From a virus, in IMG/VR virus record IMGVR_UViG_3300045988_098052: 13,139 bases of DNA, one strand, 5' to 3'. The notes under the pieces were generated by a model. That model was not told the origin of the DNA. It was given only the letters and a program-made list of their open reading frames with translations, and searched no databases. Numbering within the stretch: the first letter of the stretch is position 1; each line of letters opens with the position of its first letter. A program made the position numbers and the translations under genes. Below are positions 1 to 13,139 of the stretch, piece by piece.

Positions 1-50
1 AAACTTGGCAAGACTAACCTGTGAACAAATTGTTAACATTTCCCCAATCT

Positions 51-79
51 GTTCATATTTCGTTCATATTTCGTTCATA
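51..79. repeat. Tandem 11-bp repeat GTTCATATTTC, 2.6 copies, about 50 bp from the genome end. The mirror copy is at 13061-13089.
   Basis: Direct reading gives units at 51-61 and 62-72 and a partial unit at 73-79. The half-site TGTTCA also occurs inverted as TGAACA at 22-27. Confidence 0.9.
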
Positions 80-159
80 ACATCAAAATTGGCATGATTC
101 TTGCTAGGCAACTATAACATTAAATTGCCTGACAATATCATACAAAGTCTGTCACTTAT

Positions 160-181
160 TCTATTGACATTCTATTGACAT
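160..181. repeat. Tandem 11-bp repeat TCTATTGACAT, 2 copies, each carrying a TTGACA box. The mirror copy is at 12959-12980.
   Basis: Direct reading gives units at 160-170 and 171-181. Confidence 0.9.
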
Positions 182-203
182 ATTAGTCCAATTGGACTAT
201 AAT
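175..203 (+). promoter_or_regulatory. Left-end early promoter, TTGACA-17 nt-TATAAT, with the 16-bp palindrome TAGTCCAATTGGACTA (184-199) in the spacer and overlapping the -10 box.
   Basis: TTGACA lies at 175-180 and TATAAT at 198-203, an exact sigma-A/sigma-70 consensus with a 17-nt spacer. A GGAGG RBS at 236-240 precedes the ATG at 250. Confidence 0.75.
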
Positions 204-249
204 ATAATCAACAAATAAATCACAGCCGATAGGCAGGAGGAAACAAGAT

Positions 250-438
250 ATGAAAGCAAATGAAGTAACAATGGAAATCATGGATGAAGTCGCAAGCTAT
301 ATGAATGATGAGATCAGAGAAGATATTCATATTGAATTAGCATCATGTACACCAGAAGAGTTTCTTACAGAATATTGCAATGCTGATCCAGATTTTGAAA
401 AATGGTGTCTTAATGATATCTTCGGTATTGAATTATAG
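250..438 (+). CDS. ITR-encoded 62-aa strongly acidic early protein of unknown function, left copy.
   Basis: The ORF has a GGAGG RBS and is the first gene after the consensus promoter. It has 17 D/E against 3 K/R. An identical protein is encoded at 12702-12890 (-). Confidence 0.8.
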   Translation: MKANEVTMEIMDEVASYMNDEIREDIHIELASCTPEEFLTEYCNADPDFEKWCLNDIFGIEL

Positions 439-452
439 GAGGTAAGTCAGTA

Positions 453-827
453 ATGAAATCAAAATACACAAAAATCAAATATACAAACACCGGGGTAAAA
501 GCCCCGGTTGTAACTCTTATTAAATCCAGGCCAGATCTTGATAGGTCGGATATGATAGAATTAAAATATCCAGAAATAAAGGTTACTATAAAGCGGATCT
601 CACGCAAGACAATGTACACACGTGCACAGTCTGTAATAAGTGTTATGAAAGATAATTTTAGTGCTTCATTTTTTGTGTATGATACAATCAATGATGCAAG
701 AGTGATTTGCGAAAATCTCTATTTGATCATTAAAAAACCAGAATTAGATTATTGTATTAATACTAGAGATTTTTATGAACTATATGAATATATGAAGGTG
801 GTGCTTAACAATGCCGAAGAATCCTAA
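453..827 (+). CDS. Hypothetical early protein, 124 aa, with a basic N-terminus.
   Basis: AGGAGG at 437-442 lies 10 nt upstream of the ATG. The ORF sits in the early operon and overlaps the next ORF start. I recognise no motif. Confidence 0.6.
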   Translation: MKSKYTKIKYTNTGVKAPVVTLIKSRPDLDRSDMIELKYPEIKVTIKRISRKTMYTRAQSVISVMKDNFSASFFVYDTINDARVICENLYLIIKKPELDYCINTRDFYELYEYMKVVLNNAEES

Positions 828-1431
828 AATCCCAACCACGTCAAAGGGTCTGAATGTCAACCCGAACATGCTAACAACGATGGAAGCTTTGCAACTCCGC
901 AAGCAGCTTGCAAAACGTCTGAATCAGCGTATGCGTAGGTTAAAAGCAAAAGGTTTTGACTCAGAAGTTGGCGGAGCGTACTCAGATTATCAAGATCTGC
1001 TTGCAAGATTTTTTCCAGGGCGATCCACTATTCCGGAAAATCTGGAAAATGAAAAATATAAAGGATTGCCTAGAACCCAAGTCAAAGCAATACAAAAAAT
1101 ACTGAAAGAAAAAAGCAGCACAGTCCAAGGCTGGCGTGAGATCATAGATAAACGTCAAAAGACCCTCAGCACAAAATACGGAATTAACTTTAAATCAAAA
1201 GAGGAAATGAAGTTATTTTTTACTTCTGAGGTCTGGAAGTGGATGCAGAATTTCTATGATAGTAAGCAAAGTATGAGAATAATTAGTCATAAACTTGATG
1301 ATTCTACGGCTTCTGAGATAATAAAAGATCTGGAAAAATTCCGGGGAAAAACAGATCCAGATATGGCTGACACGATAGCAAAACAGTTAGGGTTCTCCGG
1401 TGAAGTAGATGCTTTAAAATACAGGCCATAG
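811..1431 (+). CDS. Candidate terminal (priming) protein, 206 aa.
   Basis: It lies immediately upstream of the protein-primed DNA polymerase, as phi29 gene 3 does. It has a Lys/Arg-rich N-terminal part and a helical, charged composition. AAGGTGGTG serves as RBS. The call rests on position and composition only. Confidence 0.45.
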   Translation: MPKNPKIPTTSKGLNVNPNMLTTMEALQLRKQLAKRLNQRMRRLKAKGFDSEVGGAYSDYQDLLARFFPGRSTIPENLENEKYKGLPRTQVKAIQKILKEKSSTVQGWREIIDKRQKTLSTKYGINFKSKEEMKLFFTSEVWKWMQNFYDSKQSMRIISHKLDDSTASEIIKDLEKFRGKTDPDMADTIAKQLGFSGEVDALKYRP

Positions 1432-1447
1432 TAGGGAGGGATAAGTA

Positions 1448-3571
1448 ATGATAGTAGCAGGATATCCGGTTATTTATTTCAAAAATTATGATTATATGCG
1501 ACTATTCAATGGTGATTTTATCCGGAGATCCAGCTCAGGTCATTATCTTGGGGTTTATGAAAAAATCATAACTATAGACACAGAGACATTTGTTTATATG
1601 AACAAAGATATTGGGTTTGTTACTGACTGGACAATCACCATAGAGGATGACTGTTGTATCTATGGCAACCATGTTTCAGATCTGATTAACACGATTGATA
1701 GGATCTGTACAACTCTTCATAGTGATGATAGTCATCTTGTACGGTTTTATGTGCATAATTTCCCTTATGACTATGTTTTTCTTAGAAACCATTTTTTTCA
1801 AAAATGGGGATATCCGGATAAATCCTTAGCTGCTAAAACTCACAAATATATATTTATGAAATGGACAGGCCAAGGCATTGAGTTCCGTGATAGTCTTATT
1901 CTCACACAGCGGTCATTAGAGAAGCTATGTAAAGACATGGGAACAACTGAAAAAGCAGTTGGAACATGGGACTATAAGAAGTTTAGAACACCAGCAAGTC
2001 CACGTACATCAAAAGAAATAGCATATGTCTGTACAGATACCATTAGTCTATGCAAGGCGTTACGCAAATACATTGATCAGCGAGGATTCAATGTGGCTAA
2101 CTGCCCATTGACAAATACGGGTTTTATTCGTACCAATGCCCGCAGGAGGTCAAGAAAAGATAAGAAATGGAGAAAGCAATTTGAGAATATGGCTCTGACG
2201 TTGGAGCAATACGATCAAATGCTTGACTGCTATCATGGGGGATATACGCATGCAAATAGGTATTATGTCAATCAGCTGATAAAAGAACCTGTTGAGTGCT
2301 ATGATTTTGCAAGCTCATACATTGCATGGATGTGCTATTGTAAATTTCCAATGAGTAACTTTTGTTATACTAATAATATAACATTAAAAGACATAATGGA
2401 ACTCAAAGAAGAGTATGCTTTTTCAGGATACATCAGATTAAAAAATCTGAGATTGAAAAAAGACTGTCCTATGCCGCCATTAGCTTTTTCAAAAGCGAAA
2501 GTATGTGTTTTTCCGGAAGCAAAAAGCAAAAAAGAACAGTTCCACGATAATCTGGATAATGGAAAGATCGTCAATGCTGATCTTGTCATATATCCCTTTA
2601 CGGATCCGGATTTAGAAGTAATCTTGTCAAGTTATGATTATGACTGGGCTGATGTCTCAAAAGTCATGAGAGCAACAAAAGATTACTTGCCGGAGTGGTT
2701 TACCGGATATTTGATGGAATTGTTTTTTAAAAAATGCACCCTTAAAGGCTTGGATGAAGCAAACTACATGATTTCAAAAGGGGAGCTGAATGGTATGTAT
2801 GGCATGACTGTACAGAGAATCATTCAGATCTTATGCACAGAGCTTATGGAATCCGGAGAATGGGAAGCAAAAGAACCTGAGGACAGGGAAAAGGAACTTG
2901 AAAAGTTCTATCGGAATAAAAATAGCTTCATGCCCTACCAGTGGGGAGTATGGATAACAGCATATGCACAAGCATATCTTTTCCGGTTGGGCGCCTGCTG
3001 CCGTAGGTGGTTATATTCTGACACTGATTCAGTAAAGGGAACAGACTGGGATCATGATAAACTGGATGAGTTTAACAAGTCTATCATCAATATGTCACAA
3101 AAAAGAAACATCGGAGTAGTTGAGTATAATTCTAAAACATTCCGACTGGGTATTGCTGAATTTGATGGGATATACAGTGAATTCATCACTATGGGAAGCA
3201 AGCGTTATTGCTACAGACTGAAAAAAGATGCATCCTTGCATCTGACAGTTGCAGGTGTACCAAAAGAGGGTATTTACTGTTTGGATGATAATATAACCAA
3301 TTTTAGAAAAGGTTTCATTTTCAAAAATGATTTGACATTTCGTAGGAATTACAGAAGATTGAATGATTGGCAGGATCCAAAATGGAAGATGAAAACGGAA
3401 TATATTTTTCATGAAGGAATCAATGAAGTGACTGTTGACGGATGCAGGATTGAATATGGTTGTGCCATCCGCTTGAGCGATACAGAATACGAGCTTGATC
3501 ACGCAATCCCATATGACAAGGAAACAGGCTTGCCGTTACCATTTGAGATTGAAGATACCGTATACGGATAA
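1448..3571 (+). CDS. Family-B protein-primed DNA polymerase (pPolB), 707 aa.
   Basis: Exonuclease motifs: ExoI IDTET (D44/E46), ExoII HNFPYD (N104/D108) and ExoIII YVCTD (Y193/D197). Polymerase motifs: pre-A CYHGGYT, motif A YDFASSY (D286, Y291), motif B KGELNGMYG (K444), motif C YSDTDS (D525/D527) and KxY as SKRY (K585). The motif order matches the phi29 polymerase. Confidence 0.93.
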   Translation: MIVAGYPVIYFKNYDYMRLFNGDFIRRSSSGHYLGVYEKIITIDTETFVYMNKDIGFVTDWTITIEDDCCIYGNHVSDLINTIDRICTTLHSDDSHLVRFYVHNFPYDYVFLRNHFFQKWGYPDKSLAAKTHKYIFMKWTGQGIEFRDSLILTQRSLEKLCKDMGTTEKAVGTWDYKKFRTPASPRTSKEIAYVCTDTISLCKALRKYIDQRGFNVANCPLTNTGFIRTNARRRSRKDKKWRKQFENMALTLEQYDQMLDCYHGGYTHANRYYVNQLIKEPVECYDFASSYIAWMCYCKFPMSNFCYTNNITLKDIMELKEEYAFSGYIRLKNLRLKKDCPMPPLAFSKAKVCVFPEAKSKKEQFHDNLDNGKIVNADLVIYPFTDPDLEVILSSYDYDWADVSKVMRATKDYLPEWFTGYLMELFFKKCTLKGLDEANYMISKGELNGMYGMTVQRIIQILCTELMESGEWEAKEPEDREKELEKFYRNKNSFMPYQWGVWITAYAQAYLFRLGACCRRWLYSDTDSVKGTDWDHDKLDEFNKSIINMSQKRNIGVVEYNSKTFRLGIAEFDGIYSEFITMGSKRYCYRLKKDASLHLTVAGVPKEGIYCLDDNITNFRKGFIFKNDLTFRRNYRRLNDWQDPKWKMKTEYIFHEGINEVTVDGCRIEYGCAIRLSDTEYELDHAIPYDKETGLPLPFEIEDTVYG

Positions 3572-3594
3572 ATTGTTATAAAATTGTAATAGTT

Positions 3595-3622
3595 TTGTAA
3601 CATAAATAAGTTAAAATATAAT
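3595..3622 (+). promoter_or_regulatory. Candidate internal promoter, TTGTAA-16 nt-TATAAT.
   Basis: TTGTAA at 3595-3600 and TATAAT at 3617-3622 lie in the only sizeable intergenic gap after the polymerase. They are preceded by TTGTWA boxes with 11-bp phasing at 3573, 3584 and 3595. Confidence 0.45.
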
Positions 3623-3636
3623 CAGGAGGTGTAACT

Positions 3637-3750
3637 ATGAAAAAATTTTGGAGAGAAAACAAAGATGACATTGAAACGTTTTTTTGGACGTGCATCACTT
3701 TTGCCCTCATGTTTGCAAGCTGTCAAGTGTTGTTACTGATGGGCGATTAA
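3637..3750 (+). CDS. Small 37-aa membrane protein (MKKFWRENKDDIETFFWTCITFALMFASCQVLLLMGD).
   Basis: AGGAGG at 3624-3629 lies 7 nt upstream of the ATG. The protein has one hydrophobic span of about 20 residues. It is below the ORF-track length cutoff, so I translated it by hand. Confidence 0.5.
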   Translation: MKKFWRENKDDIETFFWTCITFALMFASCQVLLLMGD

Positions 3751-3772
3751 ATAAGTAAAGGAGGTGAGGAAA

Positions 3773-3910
3773 TTGATTGATATGTCAGAGATTTATGAAA
3801 CTATGAAAACAAGCACCCTGCGAAAAGTAACCTATGAGGATGATGAGATCAGTATAGTAGCTTACAAAGTAGGAAAAATTATTAGAATTGATGTAAAGGA
3901 GACAAAATAA
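3773..3910 (+). CDS. Hypothetical 45-aa protein with a TTG start at 3773. An alternative ATG at 3782 would give 42 aa.
   Basis: AAGGAGGTGAGG at 3758-3769 lies just upstream. The ORF fills the gap exactly up to the next gene's RBS. I translated it by hand. Confidence 0.45.
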   Translation: MIDMSEIYETMKTSTLRKVTYEDDEISIVAYKVGKIIRIDVKETK

Positions 3911-3911
3911 G

Positions 3912-4211
3912 ATGTTAAAATCAAACGTAAAAATCACTTGTAAACCATACAATGGAAGTATATCAACAAAAGCTTTTATTGACCTTGAACTGGATAATAC
4001 CCTTGTAATTAAAGGACTTACGTTGGTTGAGGGGAACGATGGTCTTTTCCTCTCATTCCCAAGTAAAAAGGGAAAAAATGGAAAATATTACAAAAGAGTT
4101 TACTCTCTGGACAAAGAATGGAAGCAATTATTACAGGATGCTTGCGTCAAAAAATACAATGAGTGCAGAAAGACTGCACAGCCTGCATCCTCCGGGGGTG
4201 GATTTCGGTAA
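3912..4211 (+). CDS. spoVG: SpoVG-fold nucleic-acid-binding protein homologue, 99 aa.
   Basis: The stretch KAFIDLELDNTLVIKGLTLVEGNDGLFLSFPSKKGKNGKYY...LLQDACVKKY aligns by eye with B. subtilis SpoVG [38 protein letters not shown]...IQDAVLNEY. AAGGAG serves as RBS. Confidence 0.75.
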   Translation: MLKSNVKITCKPYNGSISTKAFIDLELDNTLVIKGLTLVEGNDGLFLSFPSKKGKNGKYYKRVYSLDKEWKQLLQDACVKKYNECRKTAQPASSGGGFR

Positions 4212-5257
4212 TGAATATCTATGATAGAAATGGTTGGCTGGACGTTCCAAGGATCGTCCAGCTTGCTGATAAAAATAAAATTAACTTCATATTCATAATT
4301 GGAGCCAGAAGAACTGGAAAAACATATGGTATTTTCCAGCACTTCATTAATAACGTTTTTTCACAAAATGAGAAGATCATATACATGCGCCGGACAAAAG
4401 AGCAGCTGACAAAAGTCTTTCTTCCGGAATTTGATCCATGGATTGACATAAACAAGGACATGAATAGGTTTTTTCATTTTGAGAAACCCAGAGGTGAATA
4501 TGGTCGTATTAAGATCGTAGAGCAGGTTAAAGATGAAGAAATTTATAGAGGTGAAGCATTTTGCCTTACGTCAATGCATAACAACCGTGGTTTCTCTGGA
4601 TCTGATTTTTCAGAAGGGATTTATGATGAATTTATTCCGGAGAAGATCGCAAAAGCAATAACTGGGGAAGATGATGCTTTTCTGAATGCTGTTGAAACCA
4701 TCTCAGCAAACAGGGAATTGCAAGGAAAGAAACCGTTCCGCTGGTGGCTTGCTTCCAACTCAAATACGCTGGATAATCCAATTGTGCAGGCTTTCGGTTT
4801 ACTTCCAATCTTGGAACGAATGAAAAAGAATAAGCAGGAATTTTCCATGCTGAAAGAACGAGGGATAATATTGGTTCTGATTAATGACTCACCGATATCG
4901 GAAAAGAAAAAAGATACAGCTTTGTATCGTGCATTATCAGGTGATACGGACTTTGAAAAAATGGCATTATCGAATGAATTTGCATATGATGACGTTTCTG
5001 CAATACGATCAGAAGATATCCGACAATATAGACTTATTTGTGTGATCGGAAAAGTTGCAATTTATGAGCATAAATCAAAAGCTCATTTGTATGTCTCAGA
5101 TCATATATCTGGTTCATGCAAAGATGTATTTGAGGACACACAGCATGGTAAAGACCAATTCAGATGCTTTTATAGTTGGATCGACAGCTATCGTCTGACA
5201 AATAGGATAAGCTATCAGAATATTTCTGTAAAATTCTATATTGACAAATTATTTTAA
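4211..5257 (+). CDS. phi29 gp16-like DNA encapsidation (packaging) ATPase, 348 aa from ATG 4211.
   Basis: INFIFIIGARRTGKTYG matches phi29 gp16 LNFVIGARGIGKSY (Walker A). IIYMRRTKEQL matches FIYVRRYKPEL, and GIYDEFIPE matches IVFDEFIRE (Walker B). I prefer the start at 4211, which gives a TAATG overlap with the upstream stop, over the ORF-track start at 4163, which would overlap the SpoVG-like gene by 49 nt. Confidence 0.9.
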   Translation: MNIYDRNGWLDVPRIVQLADKNKINFIFIIGARRTGKTYGIFQHFINNVFSQNEKIIYMRRTKEQLTKVFLPEFDPWIDINKDMNRFFHFEKPRGEYGRIKIVEQVKDEEIYRGEAFCLTSMHNNRGFSGSDFSEGIYDEFIPEKIAKAITGEDDAFLNAVETISANRELQGKKPFRWWLASNSNTLDNPIVQAFGLLPILERMKKNKQEFSMLKERGIILVLINDSPISEKKKDTALYRALSGDTDFEKMALSNEFAYDDVSAIRSEDIRQYRLICVIGKVAIYEHKSKAHLYVSDHISGSCKDVFEDTQHGKDQFRCFYSWIDSYRLTNRISYQNISVKFYIDKLF

Positions 5258-5269
5258 CAATCATATATT
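5241..5269 (+). promoter_or_regulatory. Candidate late or ncRNA promoter, TTGACA-17 nt-TATATT.
   Basis: TTGACA at 5241-5246 lies inside the last codons of the ATPase gene and TATATT lies at 5264-5269. The predicted transcription start near 5276 falls at the foot of the downstream structured element. Confidence 0.5.
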
Positions 5270-5273
5270 AGAG

Positions 5274-5354
5274 ATAGGTCAACGTGGCTACATCGACCGC
5301 CGGAAGCGGATGCCATGGGGTGATAACCCGGAAGCGTTGACCTATTTTAATTTT
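5274..5354 (+). ncRNA. GC-rich branched RNA structure followed by a U-tract. It could be a small ncRNA, a leader attenuator or a complex terminator.
   Basis: An 11-bp perfect closing stem pairs ATAGGTCAACG (5274-5284) with CGTTGACCTAT (5335-5345). It encloses 50 nt holding two small hairpins, CCGC/GCGG at 5297-5309 and GGG/CCC at 5318-5329. TTTTAATTTT follows. The region is non-coding and is the most GC-rich intergenic stretch in an AT-rich genome. Confidence 0.55.
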
Positions 5355-5380
5355 AACTTCCGGCAGAAAAGGAGATAAAA

Positions 5381-5746
5381 ATGAAAGTAGAGGAAATTTT
5401 GGAACTCGGAAAACTTGGATTCTCAAAAAATGAGATTATGGGAATTATGAATGCACAGAATATGTCCGGACTTGGACAGGTCACAACTCCGGGACAGTAT
5501 GCAACTCCGGGACAGTATGCAACTCCGGGACAGGTTACACCGGGACAGGTCACAATTCCGGGACAGGTTACACCGGGACAGGCCACAACTCCGGGACAGG
5601 ATGCAACAAATGCAGCTCTTCTGACAGCAATCAATACATTGACTGCTACGTTACAGGCTGGTAACCTTTCTGCATCCGGAAAAGCTGGATCAGCACCACG
5701 AACATCTGAGAACGTGGCAGAGGATCTCATGAAAATTATGAATTAA
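5381..5746 (+). CDS. Candidate scaffolding protein, 121 aa, with an internal (T)PGQ repeat array.
   Basis: GGAG serves as RBS. The gene lies directly upstream of the capsid gene, as phi29 gp7 does, and is of similar small size with helical N- and C-terminal segments. The call rests on position. Confidence 0.45.
   Translation: MKVEEILELGKLGFSKNEIMGIMNAQNMSGLGQVTTPGQYATPGQYATPGQVTPGQVTIPGQVTPGQATTPGQDATNAALLTAINTLTATLQAGNLSASGKAGSAPRTSENVAEDLMKIMN
5468..5606 (+). repeat. Imperfect tandem DNA repeats of CCGGGACAG plus 6-9 variable nt, 7 copies plus one degenerate copy, encoding GQ/PGQ repeats.
   Basis: Direct reading gives the protein stretch GLGQVTTPGQYATPGQYATPGQVTPGQVTIPGQVTPGQATTPGQDA. Two units are an identical 18-mer, ACTCCGGGACAGTATGCA. 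Confidence 0.9.
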
Positions 5747-5761
5747 GGAGGTAGAAAAATA

Positions 5762-6958
5762 ATGGCAAACACTTTAGTGGTTCAGGATGCCTATTTGATT
5801 ATCAATGACTTATACAAGATGGCCACCGGTCGGGAGAACATTAAGGCAGTTGATACAAGCTCCTTTGTAGCTGTTGGTGAAACCATGCTACGTACAGGTG
5901 TAGAACCAACGTTAAAAGCCCTCAGCCAGTGGTGTGGTCGTACCTATTTTGAAATGGAAAAATACAGATCAGGAGTATTCCGCTCCATCATTGAGGATAA
6001 TGAGAGATGGGGTGCTATCACACGTGAGATTATTTCTCTGCCATTGGATGCAGAAGCATCACAGGATTGGAATACAGACTTGAATGAAAACCAGCTTGCT
6101 GATGGACAGTCTGTGGATATGTACAAGATTAATAAGCCAAAAGTGGTTGAGTTAAAATTCTACGGAAGCAAGGTACTTCAGTCACATATCACACGATTCC
6201 GGGATCAGCTGGCACTTGCTTTTTCCAACGAAGCAGAGTTTCTTATGTTTGTAACCTCATACATGACAGCTTATTATAATGACATCGAGAGCCGAAACGA
6301 AGCAAAGCGCAGAATGACGGTGCTTAACTTTATGGCGGGGGTTTCTTCCCTTGGCACAAATGAGGTTGATCTTGTAAATGAATACAATACAGCATATGGT
6401 ACAGAGCTTACAAGAAAACAGCTTTTAAGCCCGGAACATCACAGAGATTTCATGGCTTTTGTTGTTGCAAGAATCAAGAAAGACTCAAAAAAAATGCAGG
6501 ACAGAACAGCAAAGTATCATATGAATCTTACCGGAAAAGATATCTTACGTTTCACAAGACCGGAGAACCAGAAGTTGCTTATGTACACAGATTTCTGGAT
6601 TGACAGCGAAACACAGGTATTCCCGACAGTATTTAATGATGAGCAGCTTAGAATTGCTGATAAAGAACTGGTAAATGGCTGGCAGGAGTTCGACAGCCCA
6701 GCTATTAACATCACTCCAAACATTATTGATGTAAACGGTGTCTCAAAGAAAGCAGAGTCAGCTGTAAATATTCCTTATGTTCTCGGTCTTTTATATGATC
6801 GTAGAGCAATGGGTGTGAATAATCAGTGGATGTATTCTGCATCAACACCGTTTAACGCAGCAGGAGGCTACTACAATATCTATGATCATTACCGCTTCAA
6901 TGCTTGGAACAACTTCACACACAATGCAATTCTTTACGTGCTTGGGGAGGGAGTATAA
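5762..6958 (+). CDS. Major capsid protein, 398 aa.
   Basis: It is the largest ORF in the head module and follows the scaffold-like gene with a strong GGAGG RBS. Its size is typical of capsid proteins of small phi29-related podoviruses. I cannot verify a diagnostic motif by eye. Confidence 0.7.
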   Translation: MANTLVVQDAYLIINDLYKMATGRENIKAVDTSSFVAVGETMLRTGVEPTLKALSQWCGRTYFEMEKYRSGVFRSIIEDNERWGAITREIISLPLDAEASQDWNTDLNENQLADGQSVDMYKINKPKVVELKFYGSKVLQSHITRFRDQLALAFSNEAEFLMFVTSYMTAYYNDIESRNEAKRRMTVLNFMAGVSSLGTNEVDLVNEYNTAYGTELTRKQLLSPEHHRDFMAFVVARIKKDSKKMQDRTAKYHMNLTGKDILRFTRPENQKLLMYTDFWIDSETQVFPTVFNDEQLRIADKELVNGWQEFDSPAINITPNIIDVNGVSKKAESAVNIPYVLGLLYDRRAMGVNNQWMYSASTPFNAAGGYYNIYDHYRFNAWNNFTHNAILYVLGEGV

Positions 6959-7281
6959 TGATAATCGTTCTTGATGAACAATACAGAGAAACACCAGTTC
7001 AAATGAGTTCAATCCATATCGGGGTGAAAAAAATGATAATCAGTCCTAATGTTGTAAACAATGAACGATGTATAATTATGGCTGACAATAAAGGTTTTAT
7101 TTCAAAACCAATTTTTATTGGAACAGAACAAAATAATGGAATCTATACAACCATTGAGTTTCCAGAACAACCATATGGATATCCTGACCTATCAACCATG
7201 TTTTGGACAGGATTCGGGTTGGTTTTAGTTGAAACAGACACAAATTATGTTTCCGCTGATGATTATTTTAGATTGAGGTAA
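6958..7281 (+). CDS. Hypothetical protein, 107 aa, possibly a minor head or decoration protein.
   Basis: The start gives a TAATG overlap with the capsid stop and is preceded by GGGGAGGGAG. An alternative start is ATG 7033. The ORF-track start at 6904 would overlap the capsid gene. Confidence 0.5.
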   Translation: MIIVLDEQYRETPVQMSSIHIGVKKMIISPNVVNNERCIIMADNKGFISKPIFIGTEQNNGIYTTIEFPEQPYGYPDLSTMFWTGFGLVLVETDTNYVSADDYFRLR

Positions 7282-7285
7282 TTTT

Positions 7286-7510
7286 ATGATGGATACATTT
7301 TTAACTATTCTTGGAAACTATGCGTTTCCTATCGTATGCTGTTGTGCCATGGCCTATTTTGTTAAATACATGTACGATCAGACCAATCAGAGAGTTGATA
7401 AGCTCAATGAGGAACACAAAAACGAGGTTGACAACTTATCAAATGTGATTAAAAATAACACGGTTGCCATTGAAAAAATGAATTCCTTAATTGAACACTT
7501 AGGAAAGTAG
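7286..7510 (+). CDS. Holin-like protein, 74 aa, with a YvrJ-like N-terminal transmembrane segment and a charged coiled-coil tail.
   Basis: LTILGNYAFPIVCCCAMAYFV resembles the GNxGFPI motif of YvrJ-family small membrane proteins. The gene lies immediately upstream of the lysin gene. Confidence 0.6.
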   Translation: MMDTFLTILGNYAFPIVCCCAMAYFVKYMYDQTNQRVDKLNEEHKNEVDNLSNVIKNNTVAIEKMNSLIEHLGK

Positions 7511-7519
7511 GTGCAAAAC

Positions 7520-8170
7520 ATGACAGCTAACAAACTTGTCGAAAATGCAAAGGAATTAATTGGAGTGAGATATGTGTGGGGTGGTTCAAACCCCACACAG
7601 GGACTTGATTGCTCCGGATTGCTTTATTGGATCCAGAAGATGGCAGGATCAGAAGTTGGTAGACTGACTGCTTCCGGTTATTCAAAACTTGGAACAAGGA
7701 TTCCAATTGGGCAGCAGAAAGTAGGTGACTTCCTATTTTTTGGAACTCCGGTTACTCATTGTGCCATTTACGTTGGCAATGGTTATATGATCGAGAGCAG
7801 GGGTGGCAGAAAAAACACTGCTTACAATCCTGGTATTGGAGTAGTAAAAAGCCTTGTAACTCATAGGTCTGACTTATCCTGCATCCGCAGGGTATGGGAT
7901 AAGGTAGGATCCTATTATGAAATAGGTCATATTTATAATACTATGGTTGATCACTTACATGTACGATATAGTGTAGGGGGTCAGATCAAAGAGTATGCAC
8001 AGCTGACAAGGGATGGTATGAAACATGCTTATTCAGATGGTTGTTTGAAAAAAGGAACCACAGTCACGGTAAAAGATATAAAAAAGGATGATGCCGGAGC
8101 AACGTGGGTTAGGATTCCATCCGGATGGATCTGTGCAATCACAGCAAAAGGTGAGGTATATGTAAAATGA
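7520..8170 (+). CDS. NlpC/P60 cysteine endopeptidase with a C-terminal SH3b-like wall-binding domain. It is probably the endolysin and possibly also virion-associated.
   Basis: The N-terminal domain carries YVWGG...GLDCSGL (catalytic Cys)...GDFLFF...THCAIYVG (catalytic His). The C-terminal part, TTVTVKDIKKDDAGATWVRIPSGWI, looks SH3b-like. The start is either ATG 7520 or GTG 7511. Confidence 0.85.
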   Translation: MTANKLVENAKELIGVRYVWGGSNPTQGLDCSGLLYWIQKMAGSEVGRLTASGYSKLGTRIPIGQQKVGDFLFFGTPVTHCAIYVGNGYMIESRGGRKNTAYNPGIGVVKSLVTHRSDLSCIRRVWDKVGSYYEIGHIYNTMVDHLHVRYSVGGQIKEYAQLTRDGMKHAYSDGCLKKGTTVTVKDIKKDDAGATWVRIPSGWICAITAKGEVYVK

Positions 8171-9510
8171 CAGAGATTATTTTATTTCATTTTTCTAAAC
8201 GAAAAAACAGTACCAAAAGACCAGCAGGGCAGGGGACTTCTGTCTCCTGCCTTTTAAAAGCTAATACCACTTTTCAGAATCCAGTGTTTAAATTAAAATT
8301 GTCACTGGATAGTGCATTGCAATACAACTACTTACAATGGGCTGATCATTATTATTTCATTAATTCAACTACATCTATCAGTAACGACATGGTTGAGATA
8401 TCAGCAAGTGAGGATGTTTTGGCTACTTACCGGACAGAGATTGGCAACTATACATGTTTTATTGAGCGATCCAACAAGCAAAATACGCTTGCCAATGATA
8501 GAATGTACATCCCTACAAATGACTGGATAAGCCAGAGTGCAATAATAGCACAGCCAATAGATACCTTTGTGAATGGGTATGCACCAAACTATTTATTGCG
8601 TACTGTTTCGGTTGAGGGTGTAAACACCTACTATATGACAGGGGAGCAGATGAAAGAGCTATTTTCATTTATGTACACCTATGGCTCTATTCCGGATGTA
8701 GTTAATTCAGCACTTACAAAATTGCTTTTTAATCCGTTCCAGTATATTCTTGACTTAAAGTGGCTACCTATTAGAGTTGACAAATTTTTTAATGCATTTG
8801 ATACTGTAAAGCTAGGCTACTGGGATAGCCATGCAAGTGCCTTTTTAATAGGTGATGGATCCTGTTCTTTTTCCTACGATTTAAGCCTTGATAATCCCTT
8901 ATATGCTGATACAGATTTCAGATTTTACAATGCTGCTTTTTCAAAATATAGCGTAAAACTTCCATTTTTGGGGGTAATTCCTATCAATCCAGCAAAGACC
9001 CATAAAGGTCAGTTAGAAGCAAATTATAATTTTGACGCTGTTTCTGGAATGGCTGACATTTGGCTTACTTCCGGAACAGAGGAATATGCGCATTTCCAAT
9101 GTCAGCTTGCTGTTCCTATACAAATTGGATATGCTAGCAGTAACATTGGTCAGCTTACTACCAGCTTGATAGACATTGGTACAAGCCTTGCTTCCAATAA
9201 TCCGATAGGGGCTATAAAAAATACGGTAGGTGCTTTTCAGAGTGTGACATCTCCGGAGCCCAACATGGTAGGCACTGTTGGGAATATAACATCAATTCTT
9301 ACTAATATGGATGCAAACAGTATCTGCTATGCCTGCAAAAGCATAAATCCAGATGGATCAAGCGAAGGTTATGCAGATGGGAATGTTCGAAGTATTTCTT
9401 CATTGAGTGGCTTTGTAAAATGTAGGAATGCCTCTATCCAGGTTGCAGGTTTTGAGGGAGATCAAGATCAAGTGAATGATTATTTAAACAATGGTTTTTA
9501 TTTTGAATAA
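8167..9510 (+). CDS. phi29 gp9-like tail knob (distal tail tube) protein, 447 aa.
   Basis: The N-terminal stretch NYLQWADHYYFINSTTSISNDMVEISASEDVLATY resembles gp9 [41 protein letters not shown]. The C-terminal FVKCRNASIQVAGFEGDQDQVNDYLNNGFYFE resembles gp9 [32 protein letters not shown]. The start gives an ATGA overlap with the lysin stop. Confidence 0.6.
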   Translation: MTEIILFHFSKRKNSTKRPAGQGTSVSCLLKANTTFQNPVFKLKLSLDSALQYNYLQWADHYYFINSTTSISNDMVEISASEDVLATYRTEIGNYTCFIERSNKQNTLANDRMYIPTNDWISQSAIIAQPIDTFVNGYAPNYLLRTVSVEGVNTYYMTGEQMKELFSFMYTYGSIPDVVNSALTKLLFNPFQYILDLKWLPIRVDKFFNAFDTVKLGYWDSHASAFLIGDGSCSFSYDLSLDNPLYADTDFRFYNAAFSKYSVKLPFLGVIPINPAKTHKGQLEANYNFDAVSGMADIWLTSGTEEYAHFQCQLAVPIQIGYASSNIGQLTTSLIDIGTSLASNNPIGAIKNTVGAFQSVTSPEPNMVGTVGNITSILTNMDANSICYACKSINPDGSSEGYADGNVRSISSLSGFVKCRNASIQVAGFEGDQDQVNDYLNNGFYFE

Positions 9511-9525
9511 AGGAGTGATGAAAAC

Positions 9526-10446
9526 ATGTGGGTACCTATGAATTTTGATAAAATCAACATATGCACAAATTACTTTCAACCATCTGGAATTAAGGCTGAC
9601 AGCTTATATACAGACACCTTTGACCGGATGCTTTATGAACGTGTGTGTTCTATCCTTGATATAAAATACAATGCGAACATTGACATTGACTATTTCAAAT
9701 ATTGCTTACTTTTCGGTGGCTATATCTGCATCACAAAGACAGATCTTTATGGTCTTATTGCACAATACCCAATGTTGACAGGCTATAACATTTATTTTAA
9801 GCCTACGACAGCTACTATACACACGTATGCAAGCAATGCTACGATTGACATTGAGGATATGGAGATCGGAAAAGACTGTTCTGTCATATATCTCAGACCT
9901 ACTTTTTGCGGAATCGGAGATATTATTGGATTCTATAGTTATAAATTGGCACTTGTAGCATCAGCTTTTGACATGAACGTGTTTAACTCCAAACTTGCGT
10001 TTTTGATAGCAGCAAAAAACAAGTCATCAGCTCAGACATTGAAAAAAATCTATGACAGCATCCAGGCAGGTAATCCAGTTGAGGCTTTTGACGTGTCGTT
10101 AAAAACGGAGGACAGACAGGGAAGCAAACAAGATTCCTTTGAAACATTCAACAAAGATTTAAAGCAGAACTTTATAGCACAGGAGCTGATTGAAGTATTT
10201 GAGAAGCTTCTTGATCAGTTTGACACGGAAGTCGGCATTCCGTCCGTAGGATCTGATAAAAAAGAACGACTGAATGTGCTTGAGACAAGCAAAAATGATG
10301 CAGAATCTGTGACACGATTAACAACTTGGCTTGAAACAATGAAGGCAGGAATTGACATGACAAATAAGTTATATCCGGAGATGAATCTGTCAATCAAGAT
10401 CAGAAGTTATGAGACCGCGGAGGTAAAAAGTTATGGGACTATATAG
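9526..10446 (+). CDS. Portal protein (upper collar, connector), 306 aa, phi29 gp10-like.
   Basis: The size matches gp10 at 309 aa. DKKERLNVLETSKNDAESVT resembles gp10 [20 protein letters not shown]. The gene lies between the tail knob and lower-collar genes. AAGGAG serves as RBS. Confidence 0.75.
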   Translation: MWVPMNFDKINICTNYFQPSGIKADSLYTDTFDRMLYERVCSILDIKYNANIDIDYFKYCLLFGGYICITKTDLYGLIAQYPMLTGYNIYFKPTTATIHTYASNATIDIEDMEIGKDCSVIYLRPTFCGIGDIIGFYSYKLALVASAFDMNVFNSKLAFLIAAKNKSSAQTLKKIYDSIQAGNPVEAFDVSLKTEDRQGSKQDSFETFNKDLKQNFIAQELIEVFEKLLDQFDTEVGIPSVGSDKKERLNVLETSKNDAESVTRLTTWLETMKAGIDMTNKLYPEMNLSIKIRSYETAEVKSYGTI

Positions 10447-11122: not shown

Positions 11123-11134
11123 GGAGGAATTATT

Positions 11135-12391
11135 ATGATAAATAGATATCCACATGCTTCCATGCAAGATATGAATCTGGACTGGTTGCTGAAAGTTGGA
11201 AAACAGGCAGACAAAGATCATGAGGAATGGACGCATATCAAAGATACTGCTCAGACCATGATTGATGATGCCATCCAGAAATCTCTTGATGATGGAGAGA
11301 TTGGAAAAGTAGTAAATGAAGCTACTACCAAAGTAATTACTGAACAGATTGACCCATTAAAAGAACAGGTTGGAACAGATACAGCTGAGATCACAAAATT
11401 ACAGAAAAGAGAAGGACTTTTTGATCACTCCGGTAAAACCATCATAATCGGTGACAGCTACACCGTTGGTTATACACCGGACGGCAATGTAACTCCATGG
11501 ACAACTAACTTTATCAAGTACACAGGGCTTGAAGATGTAACTATTTCCGCAAATGGTGGGGCATCTTTCTCAACAGCTAGTAATTCATTTCTTATGCTGC
11601 TAAATGCTGTTCCGGCTTCTGCGGATGTCAAACAGATCCTTGTAGTAGGTGGATTTAATGAGTTTGGAAGCTATTCAGAAATTGAAAATTCAATCAACGC
11701 TTTTATGGGAGCAGCAGAAGCAAGATTTCCGAATGCCAAAGTGTTTTCCGCCATGGTAGCATGGTCAGTTGATAGGACGGATGACCCAAATGTGCAGAAT
11801 AGGCTTAAGATCGCAAAGAGTGTGTATAATACTCAACGGAAGAATTGGCGGTATCTGACAGGAAGCGATTATATTCTTCATGCAGATGGTTTCCTTGCAT
11901 CAGATGGATTTCATCCGAACACAACAGGGCAGGAACGGCTTGCAACCTATCTTGCTACAGCTGTAGAAACAGGATCGTGTAGTCCATCATTTTATGATGT
12001 TAATGCAAATTTTGAAGCAGGTGACTTTTCACCAGCACCAGGATCAAGTTGGACGTTTGTTAGCTCCTACAATGAGAATACAAGCACTCTGATCTGGGGT
12101 AACTATGTTTGCCTACCAAACAGCGGAACACTTGTCTGTGATGGCACGGAATACCGTTTGGGGCGGATTTTCTCAACGTCTTTTATCGGAGATCACAACG
12201 GATATACATGCTATCCAACTACTGTGATTATTAAGTCCGGAAGTGACTTTTATCACATCCCTGCACAGCTTAACTTCAGAGGACGGCATATCTATTTGAG
12301 CCTGTATGATATTTCAGACGATAAGCATAATTACCGGACTTTGACAGAAGTAACACAGGTACAGATTCATAGAGGTTCAATCACAATGTAA
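11135..12391 (+). CDS. Tail fibre or appendage protein with a central SGNH/GDSL hydrolase domain, 418 aa.
   Basis: The SGNH blocks are I IIIGDSYT (GDS at nt 11450-11458), II SANGGAS, III VVGGFNEF and V SDGFHPN (nt 11903-11920). A coiled-coil-like N-terminal 95 aa and a C-terminal 130 aa flank the domain. It is the last gene of the structural operon. Confidence 0.75.
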   Translation: MINRYPHASMQDMNLDWLLKVGKQADKDHEEWTHIKDTAQTMIDDAIQKSLDDGEIGKVVNEATTKVITEQIDPLKEQVGTDTAEITKLQKREGLFDHSGKTIIIGDSYTVGYTPDGNVTPWTTNFIKYTGLEDVTISANGGASFSTASNSFLMLLNAVPASADVKQILVVGGFNEFGSYSEIENSINAFMGAAEARFPNAKVFSAMVAWSVDRTDDPNVQNRLKIAKSVYNTQRKNWRYLTGSDYILHADGFLASDGFHPNTTGQERLATYLATAVETGSCSPSFYDVNANFEAGDFSPAPGSSWTFVSSYNENTSTLIWGNYVCLPNSGTLVCDGTEYRLGRIFSTSFIGDHNGYTCYPTTVIIKSGSDFYHIPAQLNFRGRHIYLSLYDISDDKHNYRTLTEVTQVQIHRGSITM

Positions 12392-12689
12392 TGAAAGATA
12401 GCCCAGCGTATGCTGGGCTATTGTTTTTTATGCATCTATTAAAAGCTTTCTGAGTAGCTTGACTACTGACCAGTTTGTTTTTTCTACAAAAAATGTTATC
12501 ATAAAAATAGACTTTCCAGTATTTAGATTTAGAGAGCTTAATTCCAACTCTATCATCAAAATTAAGATAAGATGCAAACAAGATATTAAGGTCATCATCA
12601 TATTCACATCTTAACCCTTGATTTTCAAGGTCACATGCAAGCTGACTAAATGTCATGACATTCTTAACATAACACACATTGTATTTCAT
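12381..12689 (-). CDS. Hypothetical right-end early protein, 102 aa.
   Basis: GGAGGG serves as RBS, directly after the stop of the ITR gene copy. It is the second gene of the right-end operon. Its 3' end runs through the terminator hairpin and overlaps the tail-fibre gene by 11 nt. I recognise no motif. Confidence 0.55.
   Translation of the reverse strand: MKYNVCYVKNVMTFSQLACDLENQGLRCEYDDDLNILFASYLNFDDRVGIKLSKSKYWKVYFYDNIFCRKNKLVSSQATQKAFNRCIKNNSPAYAGLSFITL
12398..12429 (+). terminator. Intrinsic terminator of the long + strand operon, possibly bidirectional.
   Basis: A perfect 10-bp stem pairs ATAGCCCAGC with GCTGGGCTAT around the loop GTAT. TGTTTTTT follows, 7 nt after the tail-fibre stop. 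An A-rich tract lies upstream on the other side. Confidence 0.85.
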
Positions 12690-12701
12690 GTTCTCACCCT
12701 C

Positions 12702-12890
12702 CTACAGTTCAATACCGAAGATATCATTAAGACACCATTTTTCAAAATCTGGATCAGCATTGCAATATTCTGTAAGAAACTCTTCTGGTGTACATGATGC
12801 TAATTCAATATGAATATCTTCTCTGATCTCATCATTCATATAGCTTGCGACTTCATCCATGATTTCCATTGTTACTTCATTTGCTTTCAT
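12702..12890 (-). CDS. ITR-encoded 62-aa strongly acidic early protein, right copy.
   Basis: The protein is identical to that of 250-438. The nucleotides are identical except in the last sense codon, CTG here against TTA on the left. Confidence 0.8.
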   Translation of the reverse strand: MKANEVTMEIMDEVASYMNDEIREDIHIELASCTPEEFLTEYCNADPDFEKWCLNDIFGIEL

Positions 12891-13139
12891 ATCTTGTTTC
12901 CTCCTGCCTATCGGCTGTGATTTATTTGTTGATTATATTATAGTCCAATTGGACTAATATGTCAATAGAATGTCAATAGAATAAGTGACAGACTTTGTAT
13001 GATATTGTCAGGCAATTTAATGTTATAGTTGCCTAGCAAGAATCATGCCAATTTTGATGTTATGAACGAAATATGAACGAAATATGAACAGATTGGGGAA
13101 ATGTTAACAATTTGTTCACAGGTTAGTCTTGCCAAGTTT
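12708..13139. repeat. Right inverted terminal repeat, the mirror copy of nt 1-432.
   Basis: Exact reverse complement of nt 1-432. The window ends ...ggttagtcttgccaagttt, which is the reverse complement of aaacttggcaagactaacc at the start. Confidence 0.95.
12937..12965 (-). promoter_or_regulatory. Right-end early promoter, the mirror copy of 175-203 with the same palindrome at 12941-12956.
   Basis: It lies inside the perfect ITR, so its sequence is identical on the minus strand. It drives the 12890..12702 and 12689..12381 ORFs. Confidence 0.75.

What the first reader, a model, noticed from the sequence alone, without database searches (positions are those of the whole stretch)
250..438. A strongly acidic 62-aa protein gene lies entirely inside the ITR and is therefore duplicated at both ends behind a consensus promoter
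The ORF at 250-438 and its mirror at 12702-12890 encode the same 62-aa protein, with 17 D/E against 3 K/R, a net charge near -14. At each end it is the gene closest to the terminus and the first gene after a perfect TTGACA-17-TATAAT promoter. Small, very acidic early phage proteins are often DNA mimics or host-factor inhibitors. Examples are phi29 p56, which inhibits uracil-DNA glycosylase, and T7 Ocr. In phi29 one end enters the cell first and genes at that end are needed early. Placing the gene in the ITR would guarantee doubled dosage and immediate expression whichever end enters first. This looks like an end-encoded anti-defence or takeover module and is my best candidate for something undescribed here.
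Basis: partly seen in the sequence, partly recalled or inferred. Interest (0 to 1): 0.8.

Follow-up and report, generated by a model that had tools for sequence, protein, structure and literature searches.

The report
AcrIC5-like anti-CRISPR gene duplicated in phage ITRs
The small acidic gene at both ends of this 13-kb gut phage is real, but it belongs to an already described anti-CRISPR family (AcrIC5), so the protein is not new; the unusual part is that this genome's terminal repeat has grown to include it, giving two copies.

Summary
The window is a complete 13,139-bp phi29-like podophage genome. The ORF at 250-438 and its mirror at 12702-12890 encode the same 62-aa protein (17 D/E, 3 K/R, charge -14.4). 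It is the first cistron behind the only perfect TTGACA-17-TATAAT match in the genome. One correction: the perfect repeat ends at nt 432, and the last Leu codon differs between the ends by two synonymous changes.

The protein is not undescribed. It passes Pfam's threshold for PF22147 AcrIC5 (37.5 bits, cut-off 27). A profile of its relatives matches the validated Pseudomonas AcrIC5 group (hhalign 97.4%). PDB 7YHR (AcrIC5) is the top hit by both sequence profile and fold.

In 64 related contigs the ITR promoter is conserved. The slot behind it is variable: empty, AcrIC5-like, or other small unknown genes. Of 16 relatives that show both end promoters, 3 carry the gene, each at the right end only. 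Only this window has it at both ends. The protein's target, the host and the benefit of two copies are all untested.

The parts
1..442 (+). Left inverted terminal repeat. It is exact to nt 432, and 440 of 442 nt match the right arm. It starts AAACTTGGCAAG, which is conserved in relatives.
12698..13139 (-). Right inverted terminal repeat, the mirror of 1-442.
175..203 (+). Left ITR promoter: TTGACA (175-180), a 17-nt spacer, TATAAT (198-203). An 11-nt tandem duplication (161-182) adds a second -35 box at 164-169.
   Evidence: The promoter is conserved about 150 nt from both ends across the clade.
12937..12965 (-). Right ITR promoter, the mirror copy.
184..199 (.). A 16-nt perfect palindrome, TAGTCCAATTGGACTA, in the promoter spacer and overlapping the -10 box. 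It looks like an operator. The mirror copy is at 12941-12956.
   Evidence: only these 2 sites in the window and 0 in shuffles. Relatives keep symmetric half-sites with compensatory changes.
235..240 (+). Shine-Dalgarno AGGAGG, 9 nt upstream of the ATG. The mirror copy is at 12900-12905.
250..438 (+). Left copy of the acr-like gene. It encodes a 62-aa AcrIC5-family protein. The stop codon TAG overlaps the next gene's RBS (TAGGAGG).
12702..12890 (-). Right copy of the acr-like gene. The protein is identical. The last Leu codon is CTG, where the left copy has TTA.
453..827 (+). Conserved first core gene of the left early operon (124 aa, MKSKYTKIKYTNTGVK...). It is followed by a 206-aa gene in the position of a terminal-protein gene (811-1431; identity inferred from position only) and by DNA polymerase B (1448-3571).
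12381..12689 (-). Conserved right-end gene downstream of the acr-like gene (102 aa here). Its C-terminal third is frameshifted relative to relatives.
12397..12422 (.). Bidirectional terminator-like hairpin between the rightward late genes and the short leftward right-end operon.

Best explanation
The ORF is a real early gene for an AcrIC5-family anti-CRISPR protein. Host sigma-A-type RNA polymerase would transcribe it from the consensus promoter inside each ITR as soon as that end is in the cell (inferred from the promoter sequence). Translation would start from an open 5' UTR with a strong Shine-Dalgarno site. By homology with Pseudomonas AcrIC5, the small, highly acidic helical protein would bind the Cascade complex of a type I CRISPR-Cas system. 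Type I-C is the most likely target, probably through Cas8c near the PAM-recognition site, so that Cascade cannot bind target DNA. The gene is an exchangeable accessory cassette. It sits in a variable slot between the conserved ITR promoter and the first core gene of either end. In this genome the ITR has expanded by exactly one cassette, which gives two copies. Shown here: the sequence features, family membership, purifying selection, the cassette structure and the distribution in relatives. Inferred: expression timing, target, mechanism, host, and any benefit of the doubled copy.
For: The protein matches Pfam PF22147 AcrIC5 at E 2.6e-9 and 37.5 bits, above the curated cut-off of 27. All 13 close homologues and more than 100 further ones carry the same domain. 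Profiles of the relatives put PDB 7yhr_A (AcrIC5) first (E 0.0024 and 0.0018). hhalign of the family alignment against the validated P. delhiensis AcrIC5 group gives probability 97.4% and E 1.2e-11 over 37 columns. BLASTP gives 50% identity over 34 residues to a protein that is 78% identical to AcrIC5 (E 2e-11). The AF2 model has pLDDT 90.6 and four helices. Its best PDB match is 7yhr (TM 0.54/0.57), and its best viral matches are 'AcrIC5-like domain-containing' gut phage proteins. Strong acidity is a family trait: median net charge is -12 in 109 relatives, and AcrIC5 itself is -10. Homologues in Lachnospiraceae and Clostridium genomes are followed by a small HTH_3 gene, and some are fused to an HTH domain, as in acr-aca operons. 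Within-group dN/dS is 0.12-0.44. Published work shows that AcrIC5 blocks type I-C CRISPRi, inhibits both the P. aeruginosa and the Eggerthella lenta I-C systems, and has orthologues in Firmicutes (PMC7913775). A Cas8c PAM-site complex has been predicted for it (bioRxiv 10.1101/2025.06.06.658234). The promoter is the only perfect match in the genome. It carries an inverted repeat of the kind Aca regulators bind (PMC13551039).
Against: Only the central 37 of 62 residues align with AcrIC5, and identity to the validated protein is 32% over 34 residues. The N-terminal beta-hairpin of AcrIC5 is absent, and the C-terminus differs by an extra helix. Foldseek ranks 7yhr first but without significance (E 4.9), whereas an AcrIC5 model scores TM 0.95 and E 1.5e-9. 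As far as the papers read here show, no Firmicutes-type member of the family has been tested. The host and its CRISPR subtype are unknown. No HTH or aca gene was detected in the window. The family is very large, with 1079 clusters (50% identity), and it may not be functionally uniform. PHROGs, NCBIfam and PADLOC gave nothing useful.
Confidence: 0.65

Rival explanations
1. The protein is an acidic inhibitor of a target other than CRISPR-Cas. The target could be a restriction enzyme, uracil-DNA glycosylase (as for phi29 p56) or another DNA-binding host factor. It would share only an ancestral three-helix scaffold with AcrIC5.
For: Homology covers only the central core, and the termini that could define a binding surface differ. 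The family is very large and diverse. Acidic DNA mimics can act on several targets, which is general knowledge. PADLOC gave a sub-threshold match to a type II restriction enzyme model (E 0.013), which is most likely noise.
Against: No similarity to p56, Ocr or ArdA appeared in the Pfam, PDB profile or Foldseek searches. The only significant relatives are AcrIC5-family proteins. Homologues sit in acr-aca-like gene pairs.
Confidence: 0.15
2. The protein is a non-defence early protein, such as a small replication or transcription accessory factor that the phage needs at both ends.
For: It is the first gene of the operon that also encodes the putative terminal protein and the DNA polymerase. No function has been shown experimentally.
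Against: Most close relatives lack the gene: it is present in 7 of 64 IMG/VR contigs. It is replaced by unrelated small genes or by nothing, and it occurs at either end. A core replication factor would not be dispensable in this way. One relative (L020) carries an in-frame 7-residue deletion that removes the most conserved motif.
Confidence: 0.07
3. The two-copy, ITR-embedded state is not biological. The contig would be an assembly chimera of two co-occurring strains, one with the gene on the left and one with it on the right, or an inverted-duplication artefact. The real genome would then have one copy.
For: ITRs are collapsed repeats in assembly graphs. Two related contigs have 'ITRs' that break inside genes and look chimeric (L005, 1430 nt; L050, 557 nt). 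Left-only and right-only arrangements both exist in other samples. The two-copy state was found in this contig only.
Against: The repeat ends exactly at a cassette boundary. Beyond it each end continues into its own conserved gene. The last codon differs by two synonymous changes, and the stop codon and RBS are kept at both ends. This is what two separately maintained functional copies should look like, and not what an artefactual copy should look like. Both junction types (acr-orf124 and acr-orf102) are seen independently in other samples. L034 shows another ITR (334 nt) that extends through a slot cassette remnant at both ends.
Confidence: 0.12

Closest known systems
AcrIC5 of Pseudomonas delhiensis (SDK41378.1 / WP_089394111.1; PDB 7YHR; Pfam PF22147)
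   Same: Both are about 60 aa and strongly acidic (net charge -14 here, -10 for AcrIC5). They share a conserved core motif (M-[DN]-D-E-[IL]-R-E-[DE]-[IL]-H ... E-F-L-x-x-Y) and a three-helix core. The window protein passes the Pfam threshold, and the profile-profile probability is 97.4%.
   Different: Identity is only 32% over the central 34 residues. The window protein lacks the N-terminal beta-hairpin and has an extra C-terminal helix (DPDFEKWCLNDIF). AcrIC5 was found next to aca1 in a Pseudomonas mobile element, whereas this gene sits in a tiny lytic-type protein-primed phage with no detectable aca. Activity has not been tested.
AcrIC5 homologues in Firmicutes and Actinobacteria (Leon et al. 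2021, PMC7913775), including the Cryptobacterium curtum homologue used as bait in the AcrIB2 study (bioRxiv 10.1101/2023.05.22.541795)
   Same: They come from the same broad family and the same gut-associated Gram-positive setting. Cellular homologues retrieved here are from Lachnospiraceae, Clostridium, Blautia, Lactonifactor and Oscillospiraceae, and are often followed by an HTH gene.
   Different: Those lie in prophage or genomic contexts with regulator genes. This one is the first cistron behind a terminal-repeat promoter and is present twice.
Other small acidic Cascade-blocking anti-CRISPRs (AcrIF2, AcrIF14, AcrIC9) and the DNA mimics Ocr and phi29 p56
   Same: They work alike in principle: a small, acidic, early protein occupies a DNA-binding surface.
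   Different: No sequence or fold relationship was detected. The resemblance is in mode of action only.
Anti-defence or host-takeover genes placed in first-entering or terminally repeated DNA: the plasmid leading region (PMC11541004), the T5 first-step-transfer DNA and its terminal repeat, the SPO1 terminal redundancy, and diploid immunomodulator genes in poxvirus ITRs (the last three from general knowledge)
   Same: A counter-defence gene sits at the very end of the genome behind a strong promoter. As in poxviruses, it is duplicated because it lies inside an inverted terminal repeat whose boundary can move.
   Different: T5 and SPO1 have direct repeats, not inverted ones. The poxvirus case is eukaryotic and involves repeats of several kilobases. 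Here a 442-nt ITR of a protein-primed 13-kb phage holds one 62-codon gene.

Membership tests
AcrIC5 family (Pfam PF22147, AcrIC5-like domain) | Match to the family HMM above the curated gathering score | tested here: met
   37.5 bits against a cut-off of 27, E 2.6e-9, protein residues 11-45 on profile positions 10-44 of 53.
AcrIC5 family (Pfam PF22147, AcrIC5-like domain) | Detectable homology to the experimentally validated protein (P. delhiensis AcrIC5, PDB 7YHR) | tested here: met
   Profile searches against the PDB put 7yhr_A first (E 0.0024 and 0.0018). hhalign of A2 against A3 gives probability 97.4% and E 1.2e-11. BLASTP against AcrIC5 gives 32% over 34 residues, E 2e-5. Single-sequence phmmer against the PDB missed it.
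AcrIC5 family (Pfam PF22147, AcrIC5-like domain) | Same fold as the crystal structure 7YHR | tested here: inconclusive
   7yhr is the rank-1 hit among 350,542 chains, but with E 4.9, TM 0.54/0.57 and rmsd 5.6 A. The control AcrIC5 model gives TM 0.95 and E 1.5e-9. Three core helices correspond, but the beta-hairpin is missing and there is an extra C-terminal helix.
AcrIC5 family (Pfam PF22147, AcrIC5-like domain) | Small size (about 60 aa) and strongly acidic surface | tested here: met
   62 aa with net charge -14.4. The family median is -12 and AcrIC5 is -10.
AcrIC5 family (Pfam PF22147, AcrIC5-like domain) | Inhibits type I-C CRISPR-Cas interference by blocking Cascade-DNA binding | not testable with these tools
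   This is known only for Pseudomonas AcrIC5 (PMC7913775). It needs plaque, transformation or CRISPRi assays.
AcrIC5 family (Pfam PF22147, AcrIC5-like domain) | The host carries a type I-C (or related type I) CRISPR-Cas system that targets the phage | not tested
   The host is unknown. The nearest cellular homologues are in gut Clostridia.
Canonical acr-aca operon | An acr gene co-transcribed with a small HTH/RHH regulator (Aca) that binds an inverted repeat in the promoter | tested here: inconclusive
   An inverted repeat lies in the promoter spacer. No HTH or RHH gene was detected in the window by Pfam, NCBIfam or PHROGs. Homologues elsewhere do have an adjacent or fused HTH. The palindrome is present in relatives whether or not they carry the acr-like gene.
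phi29 p56-type UDG inhibitor; Ocr/ArdA DNA mimics | Sequence or fold similarity to p56, Ocr or ArdA | tested here: not met
   None of these appeared in Pfam, the PDB sequence or profile searches or Foldseek.
phi29-like protein-primed podophage (genomic setting) | Linear genome with ITRs, type-B protein-primed DNA polymerase, gp16-type packaging ATPase, phi29-type MCP and connector | tested here: met
   Pfam gives DNA_pol_B_2, Podovirus_Gp16 and Phi29_MCP, and Phage_connector in relatives. ITRs are shown. The terminal AAA is conserved. No pRNA was found by Rfam.

The most novel reading that the evidence does not exclude
The two promoter-proximal slots just inside the ITRs of this gut phage clade form an exchangeable anti-defence cassette system. 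Cassettes share the same 5' UTR/RBS and the same TAGGAGG 3' boundary. They move between the left and right ends and between phages. The ITR boundary expands by inter-end gene conversion to make a favoured cassette diploid, as happened here with the AcrIC5-like gene. Under this reading, the other slot occupants that have no database match would be new anti-CRISPR or anti-defence families. These are the 58-64-aa 'MMSEARLYELAHEALL' family and the acidic 'IETSWGYxYTLYKEYNG' family.
Probability: 0.3. Interest if true: 0.6.

Novelty: new member of a known kind. Interest (0 to 1): 0.4.

Why it matters
This is a diverged, untested Firmicutes-type branch of the AcrIC5 family in one of the smallest tailed phages. 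Such a phage has very little room for accessory genes, so keeping this gene, here in two copies behind the strongest promoter, argues that CRISPR pressure on these gut phages is real. In practice the protein is a compact candidate inhibitor for type I-C (possibly I-B) systems of gut Clostridia. The variable slots behind the ITR promoters also give a simple guilt-by-association handle for finding further small anti-defence genes. The moving ITR boundary resembles, on a small scale, the gene diploidy seen in poxvirus ITRs. None of this changes current understanding of anti-CRISPRs.

Tried and rejected
- Single-sequence phmmer against the PDB returned only nanobody framework noise (E about 0.02) and missed AcrIC5. 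Profiles were needed.
- PHROGs, NCBIfam and PADLOC gave nothing usable for the 62-aa protein or its neighbours.
- Rfam at E <= 1 and ARAGORN found no RNA genes, so no pRNA was identified.
- The one metagenome scan with the single protein found only 3 loci and did not recover the window's own contig. An exact look-up of the window protein also found no record. The source sample and its read support therefore could not be examined.
- The long 'ITRs' of L005 (1430 nt) and L050 (557 nt) were considered as further examples of genes inside ITRs. They were rejected because they break inside genes and look like assembly chimeras.
- dN/dS values between the two allele groups were discarded, because an indel offset misaligned the codons. 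Only within-group values were used.
Its profile found nothing in the PDB.
- The other slot proteins have no Pfam or PHROGs match, apart from a PAPS-reductase domain in L027.
- A literature search combining inverted terminal repeat, anti-CRISPR and protein-primed found no description of this arrangement.

Full report
**What the window is.** The 13,139-bp window is a complete linear genome of a small phi29-like, protein-primed podophage with 38% GC. It encodes a type-B DNA polymerase (1448-3571), a SpoVG-like protein (3912-4211), a gp16-type packaging ATPase (ending at 5257), a phi29-type major capsid protein (5762-6958) and an NlpC/P60 lysin (7511-8170). It also has a 306-aa gene (9526-10446) whose same-sized counterparts in relatives hit Phage_connector, and a 418-aa tail gene (11135-12391) whose counterparts hit GDSL lipase weakly. 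Almost all genes read rightward. Only the last two genes at the right end read leftward. The sequence starts AAACTTGGCAAG, and several relatives start the same way, so the contig appears to reach the true termini. The nearest GenBank record is an unannotated human-faecal contig, MT836115 (84% identity over 427-12478). The nearest cultured phages by capsid protein are the Amedibacillus phages AD70P2 and AD70P3, at about 30% identity.

**Checking the observation.**
- The ORF at 250-438 and its mirror at 12702-12890 encode the same 62-aa protein, with 17 D/E, 3 K/R, net charge -14.4 and pI 4.05.
- The inverted repeat is reported as 1-442 and 12698-13139, but it is exact only to nt 432. Positions 433 and 435 differ (TTA on the left, CTG on the right, both Leu). 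TAG GAGG is then shared, and the ends diverge from 443. The gene therefore lies inside the ITR except for its last sense codon and stop codon, which sit at the edge.
- TTGACA (175-180), a 17-nt spacer and TATAAT (198-203) form the only 12/12 promoter match in the genome, once per ITR. Promoter-like sites in general are not enriched over shuffles.
- AGGAGG lies 9 nt before the ATG, and the 5' UTR is essentially unstructured.
- The ORF is not a chance frame. It is conserved in related contigs, with within-group dN/dS of 0.12-0.44.

**What the protein is.**
- Pfam places it in PF22147 (AcrIC5) at 37.5 bits against a curated cut-off of 27 (E 2.6e-9).
- Thirteen close homologues, and more than a hundred further ones listed, all carry the same precomputed domain. 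An exhaustive profile search found 1079 clusters (50% identity) at E <= 1e-3.
- Single-sequence phmmer against the PDB gave only noise. Profiles of 13 and 109 relatives both put 7yhr_A, 'Anti-CRISPR protein Type I-C5', first (E 0.0024 and 0.0018).
- I recovered the validated Pseudomonas delhiensis AcrIC5 (P0269) and ten of its relatives. hhalign between the two family alignments gives 97.4% probability and E 1.2e-11 over 37 columns.
- The window protein is 50% identical over 34 residues to a protein that is itself 78% identical to AcrIC5. It is 32% identical to AcrIC5 itself.
- The AlphaFold2 model is confident (pLDDT 90.6) and has four helices. Its best PDB match is 7yhr, but without statistical weight (E 4.9, TM 0.54/0.57). 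Its best matches among viral models are 'AcrIC5-like domain-containing' proteins of gut phages.
- As a control, a model of AcrIC5 itself hits 7yhr at TM 0.95 and E 1.5e-9. That model has an N-terminal beta-hairpin followed by three helices. The window protein keeps the three-helix core, lacks the hairpin and adds a C-terminal helix.
- Strong acidity is a family trait: median net charge is -12 in 109 relatives, and -10 in AcrIC5.

**What is known about the family.** AcrIC5 was found next to aca1. It inhibits the type I-C systems of P. aeruginosa and Eggerthella lenta. It relieves CRISPRi in a cas3 deletion strain, which means it blocks DNA binding by Cascade. It was reported to have orthologues in Proteobacteria, Firmicutes and Actinobacteria (PMC7913775). 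The group that solved its structure treats it as a small acidic protein that occupies the DNA-binding site (PMC10478522). A recent preprint predicts a complex with Cas8c over the PAM-recognition site (bioRxiv 10.1101/2025.06.06.658234). The claim that it is undescribed is not supported. No relationship to phi29 p56 or Ocr was detected.

**Context of homologues elsewhere.**
- Cellular homologues retrieved from species-representative genomes come mainly from gut Clostridia: Lachnospiraceae, Clostridium, Blautia, Lactonifactor, Oscillospiraceae and Subdoligranulum.
- In two of them (L072, L074) the next gene is a 57-65-aa helix-turn-helix protein (HTH_3, E 1.8e-6). In others an HTH-like gene lies nearby, and some family members are fused to an HTH or a zinc ribbon. 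This is the usual acr-aca signature.
- A different 17-kb phi29-like contig (L091) also carries an AcrIC5-like gene close to its end, upstream of its 198-aa gene and DNA polymerase.

**The ITR, the promoter and the slot.** Using the capsid protein I fetched 64 related contigs from IMG/VR, most with 90-96% capsid identity. Six more came from exact-protein look-ups.
- The non-coding part of the ITR is highly conserved. This includes the promoter, which lies about 150 nt from each end, and an inverted repeat in its spacer.
- The region between that promoter and the first core gene is variable. The core genes are the 124/144-aa gene on the left and a 90-100-aa gene on the right. The slot may be empty, or it may hold one of the following:
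  - the AcrIC5-like gene;
  - a 58-64-aa 'MMSEARLYELAHEALL' protein;
  - an acidic 'IETSWGYxYTLYKEYNG' protein;
  - a PAPS-reductase-like protein;
  - other small ORFs with no database match.
- All these cassettes share the same upstream leader and RBS, and they usually end with a stop codon that overlaps the next RBS (TAGGAGG).
- The AcrIC5-like gene is present in 7 of the 64 IMG/VR contigs, always at the right end. In the other contigs it is at the right end in four (L002, L069-L071) and at the left end in two (L003, L004).
- Among 16 relatives whose contigs include the ITR promoter at both ends, three carry the gene (L019, L038, L039), each at the right end only. The window is the only genome with a copy at both ends.
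- One relative (L020) has an in-frame 7-residue deletion that removes the invariant YM(N)D motif.
- The gene is therefore an accessory gene, as expected for counter-defence, and not a core function.

**Is the duplication real?** ITRs are difficult for assemblers. Two relatives have long 'ITRs' that break inside genes and look chimeric (L005, L050). The window is different in several ways.
- The repeat stops at a cassette boundary.
- Each end then continues into its own conserved gene.
- The last codon differs by two synonymous changes, while the stop codon and RBS are kept.
- Both junction types occur independently in other samples.
- L034 shows another ITR (334 nt) that runs through a slot-cassette remnant at both ends.

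I judge the duplication to be probably real (about 0.85-0.9). I could not reach the reads, so a mixture of a left-copy strain and a right-copy strain remains possible.

**How it most likely works.**
- Inferred from sequence: host RNA polymerase starts at the consensus promoter in whichever ITR has entered the cell, and the acr-like gene is the first cistron translated.
- Inferred from homology: the acidic protein binds type I Cascade, most likely type I-C through Cas8c, and prevents target DNA binding. This would protect the incoming genome.
- Speculative: two copies could raise early dosage. That would matter because Acr phages are known to be dose-limited, which is general knowledge from work on phage cooperation.
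- In phi29, DNA entry is polar with the right end first (my recollection of Gonzalez-Huici et al. 2004; the reference was seen but its text was not read). If this clade behaves the same way, the usual right-end position already gives first entry, and the left copy mainly adds dosage.
- The 16-nt palindrome TAGTCCAATTGGACTA in the promoter spacer occurs only at the two ITR promoters. Relatives show compensatory half-site changes. It resembles the operators bound by Aca regulators (PMC13551039). No HTH gene was found in the phage, and the palindrome is present whether or not the acr-like gene is, so it more likely belongs to the general early-to-late switch.
- The ITR expansion is most simply explained by recombination or gene conversion between the two ends, using the shared ITR upstream and the short shared RBS boundary downstream. 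This is inferred.

**Verdict.** The protein is a new, diverged member of a known anti-CRISPR family and not a new kind of module. The ITR-embedded, two-copy arrangement and the exchangeable end slots are a modest but real curiosity. I found no description of them in the literature searched. Interest is 0.4.

Noticed in passing
window 184-199 and 12941-12956: A perfect 16-nt palindrome, TAGTCCAATTGGACTA, fills the promoter spacer and overlaps the -10 box. It is found only at the two ITR promoters. Relatives keep symmetric half-sites with compensatory changes (for example TAGTTCATATGAACTA). It looks like an operator, but no binding protein was identified.
   Followed up: partly
window 51-81 (mirror 13059-13089): Tandem 11-nt repeats (GTTCATATTTC twice, then GTTCATAAC) lie inside the ITR. 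Copy number varies from 1 to 3 among relatives. The unit resembles the operator half-site AGTTCATA found in relatives.
   Followed up: partly
window 161-182: An 11-nt tandem duplication (CTATTGACAT-T / CTATTGACAT-A) gives two -35 boxes, at 164-169 and 175-180. It is absent from the ten relatives aligned over this region.
   Followed up: partly
window 12381-12689 (-), overlapping ORF 12428-12607 (-): The conserved right-end gene is frameshifted in this genome. The C-terminal motif TNWSVVKLLRKLLIDA, which is conserved in relatives, lies in another frame (the 59-aa ORF). The annotated 102-aa ORF instead runs into the terminator hairpin. L023 shows the same alternative frame. This could be a natural variant or a sequencing error.
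   Followed up: partly
L020 (right end), compared with L036 and L039: This AcrIC5-like allele has an in-frame 21-nt deletion between two ATGAATGA-type direct repeats. The deletion removes IALYMND, which includes invariant residues, so the allele is probably inactive.
   Followed up: yes
L025, L027, L039, L042, L048 and others; L013, L017, L021, L022, L037, L038, L040: Two recurrent small-protein families occupy the same promoter-proximal slots and have no Pfam or PHROGs match. One is 'MMSEARLYELAHEALL...' (58-64 aa), sometimes directly upstream of the AcrIC5-like gene. The other is the acidic 'IETSWGYxYTLYKEYNGxRYFADA...' (62-98 aa). Both are candidates for unknown anti-defence genes by association.
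   Followed up: partly
L027 left end, 26-853: A PAPS-reductase-domain protein of about 255 aa (Pfam E 1.3e-7) occupies the left slot of one relative.
   Followed up: partly
L005 (1-1430 / 12147-13576) and L050 (1-557 / 12031-12587): These contigs have very long, 100%-identical 'ITRs' that break inside genes. One includes antisense sequence of the tail lipase gene. The other fuses the N-terminus of the 206-aa early gene to the right-end gene. They are probably assembly chimeras or defective genomes.
   Followed up: partly
L091 429-662: A different 17-kb phi29-like contig carries an AcrIC5-like gene (58% identity) close to its end, upstream of a 198-aa gene and a 632-aa DNA polymerase B.
   Followed up: partly
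window 3912-4211: A SpoVG-like 99-aa protein (Pfam E 1.1e-15) is encoded just before the packaging ATPase. It is present in every related contig for which called genes were returned. It is a nucleic-acid-binding fold of unknown role in these phages.
   Followed up: no
window 5381-5746: A 121-aa ORF upstream of the capsid gene contains tandem TPGQ(V/Y)(T/A)-type peptide repeats. It overlaps antisense and alternative-frame ORFs generated by the same repeat.
   Followed up: no
P0093, P0037, P0077 and other hits: Many AcrIC5-domain proteins are 120-285 aa long and are fused to other modules, including HTH_3/HTH_19 and zinc ribbons. Some of these may be Acr-Aca fusions, and some may be gene-calling artefacts.
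   Followed up: partly
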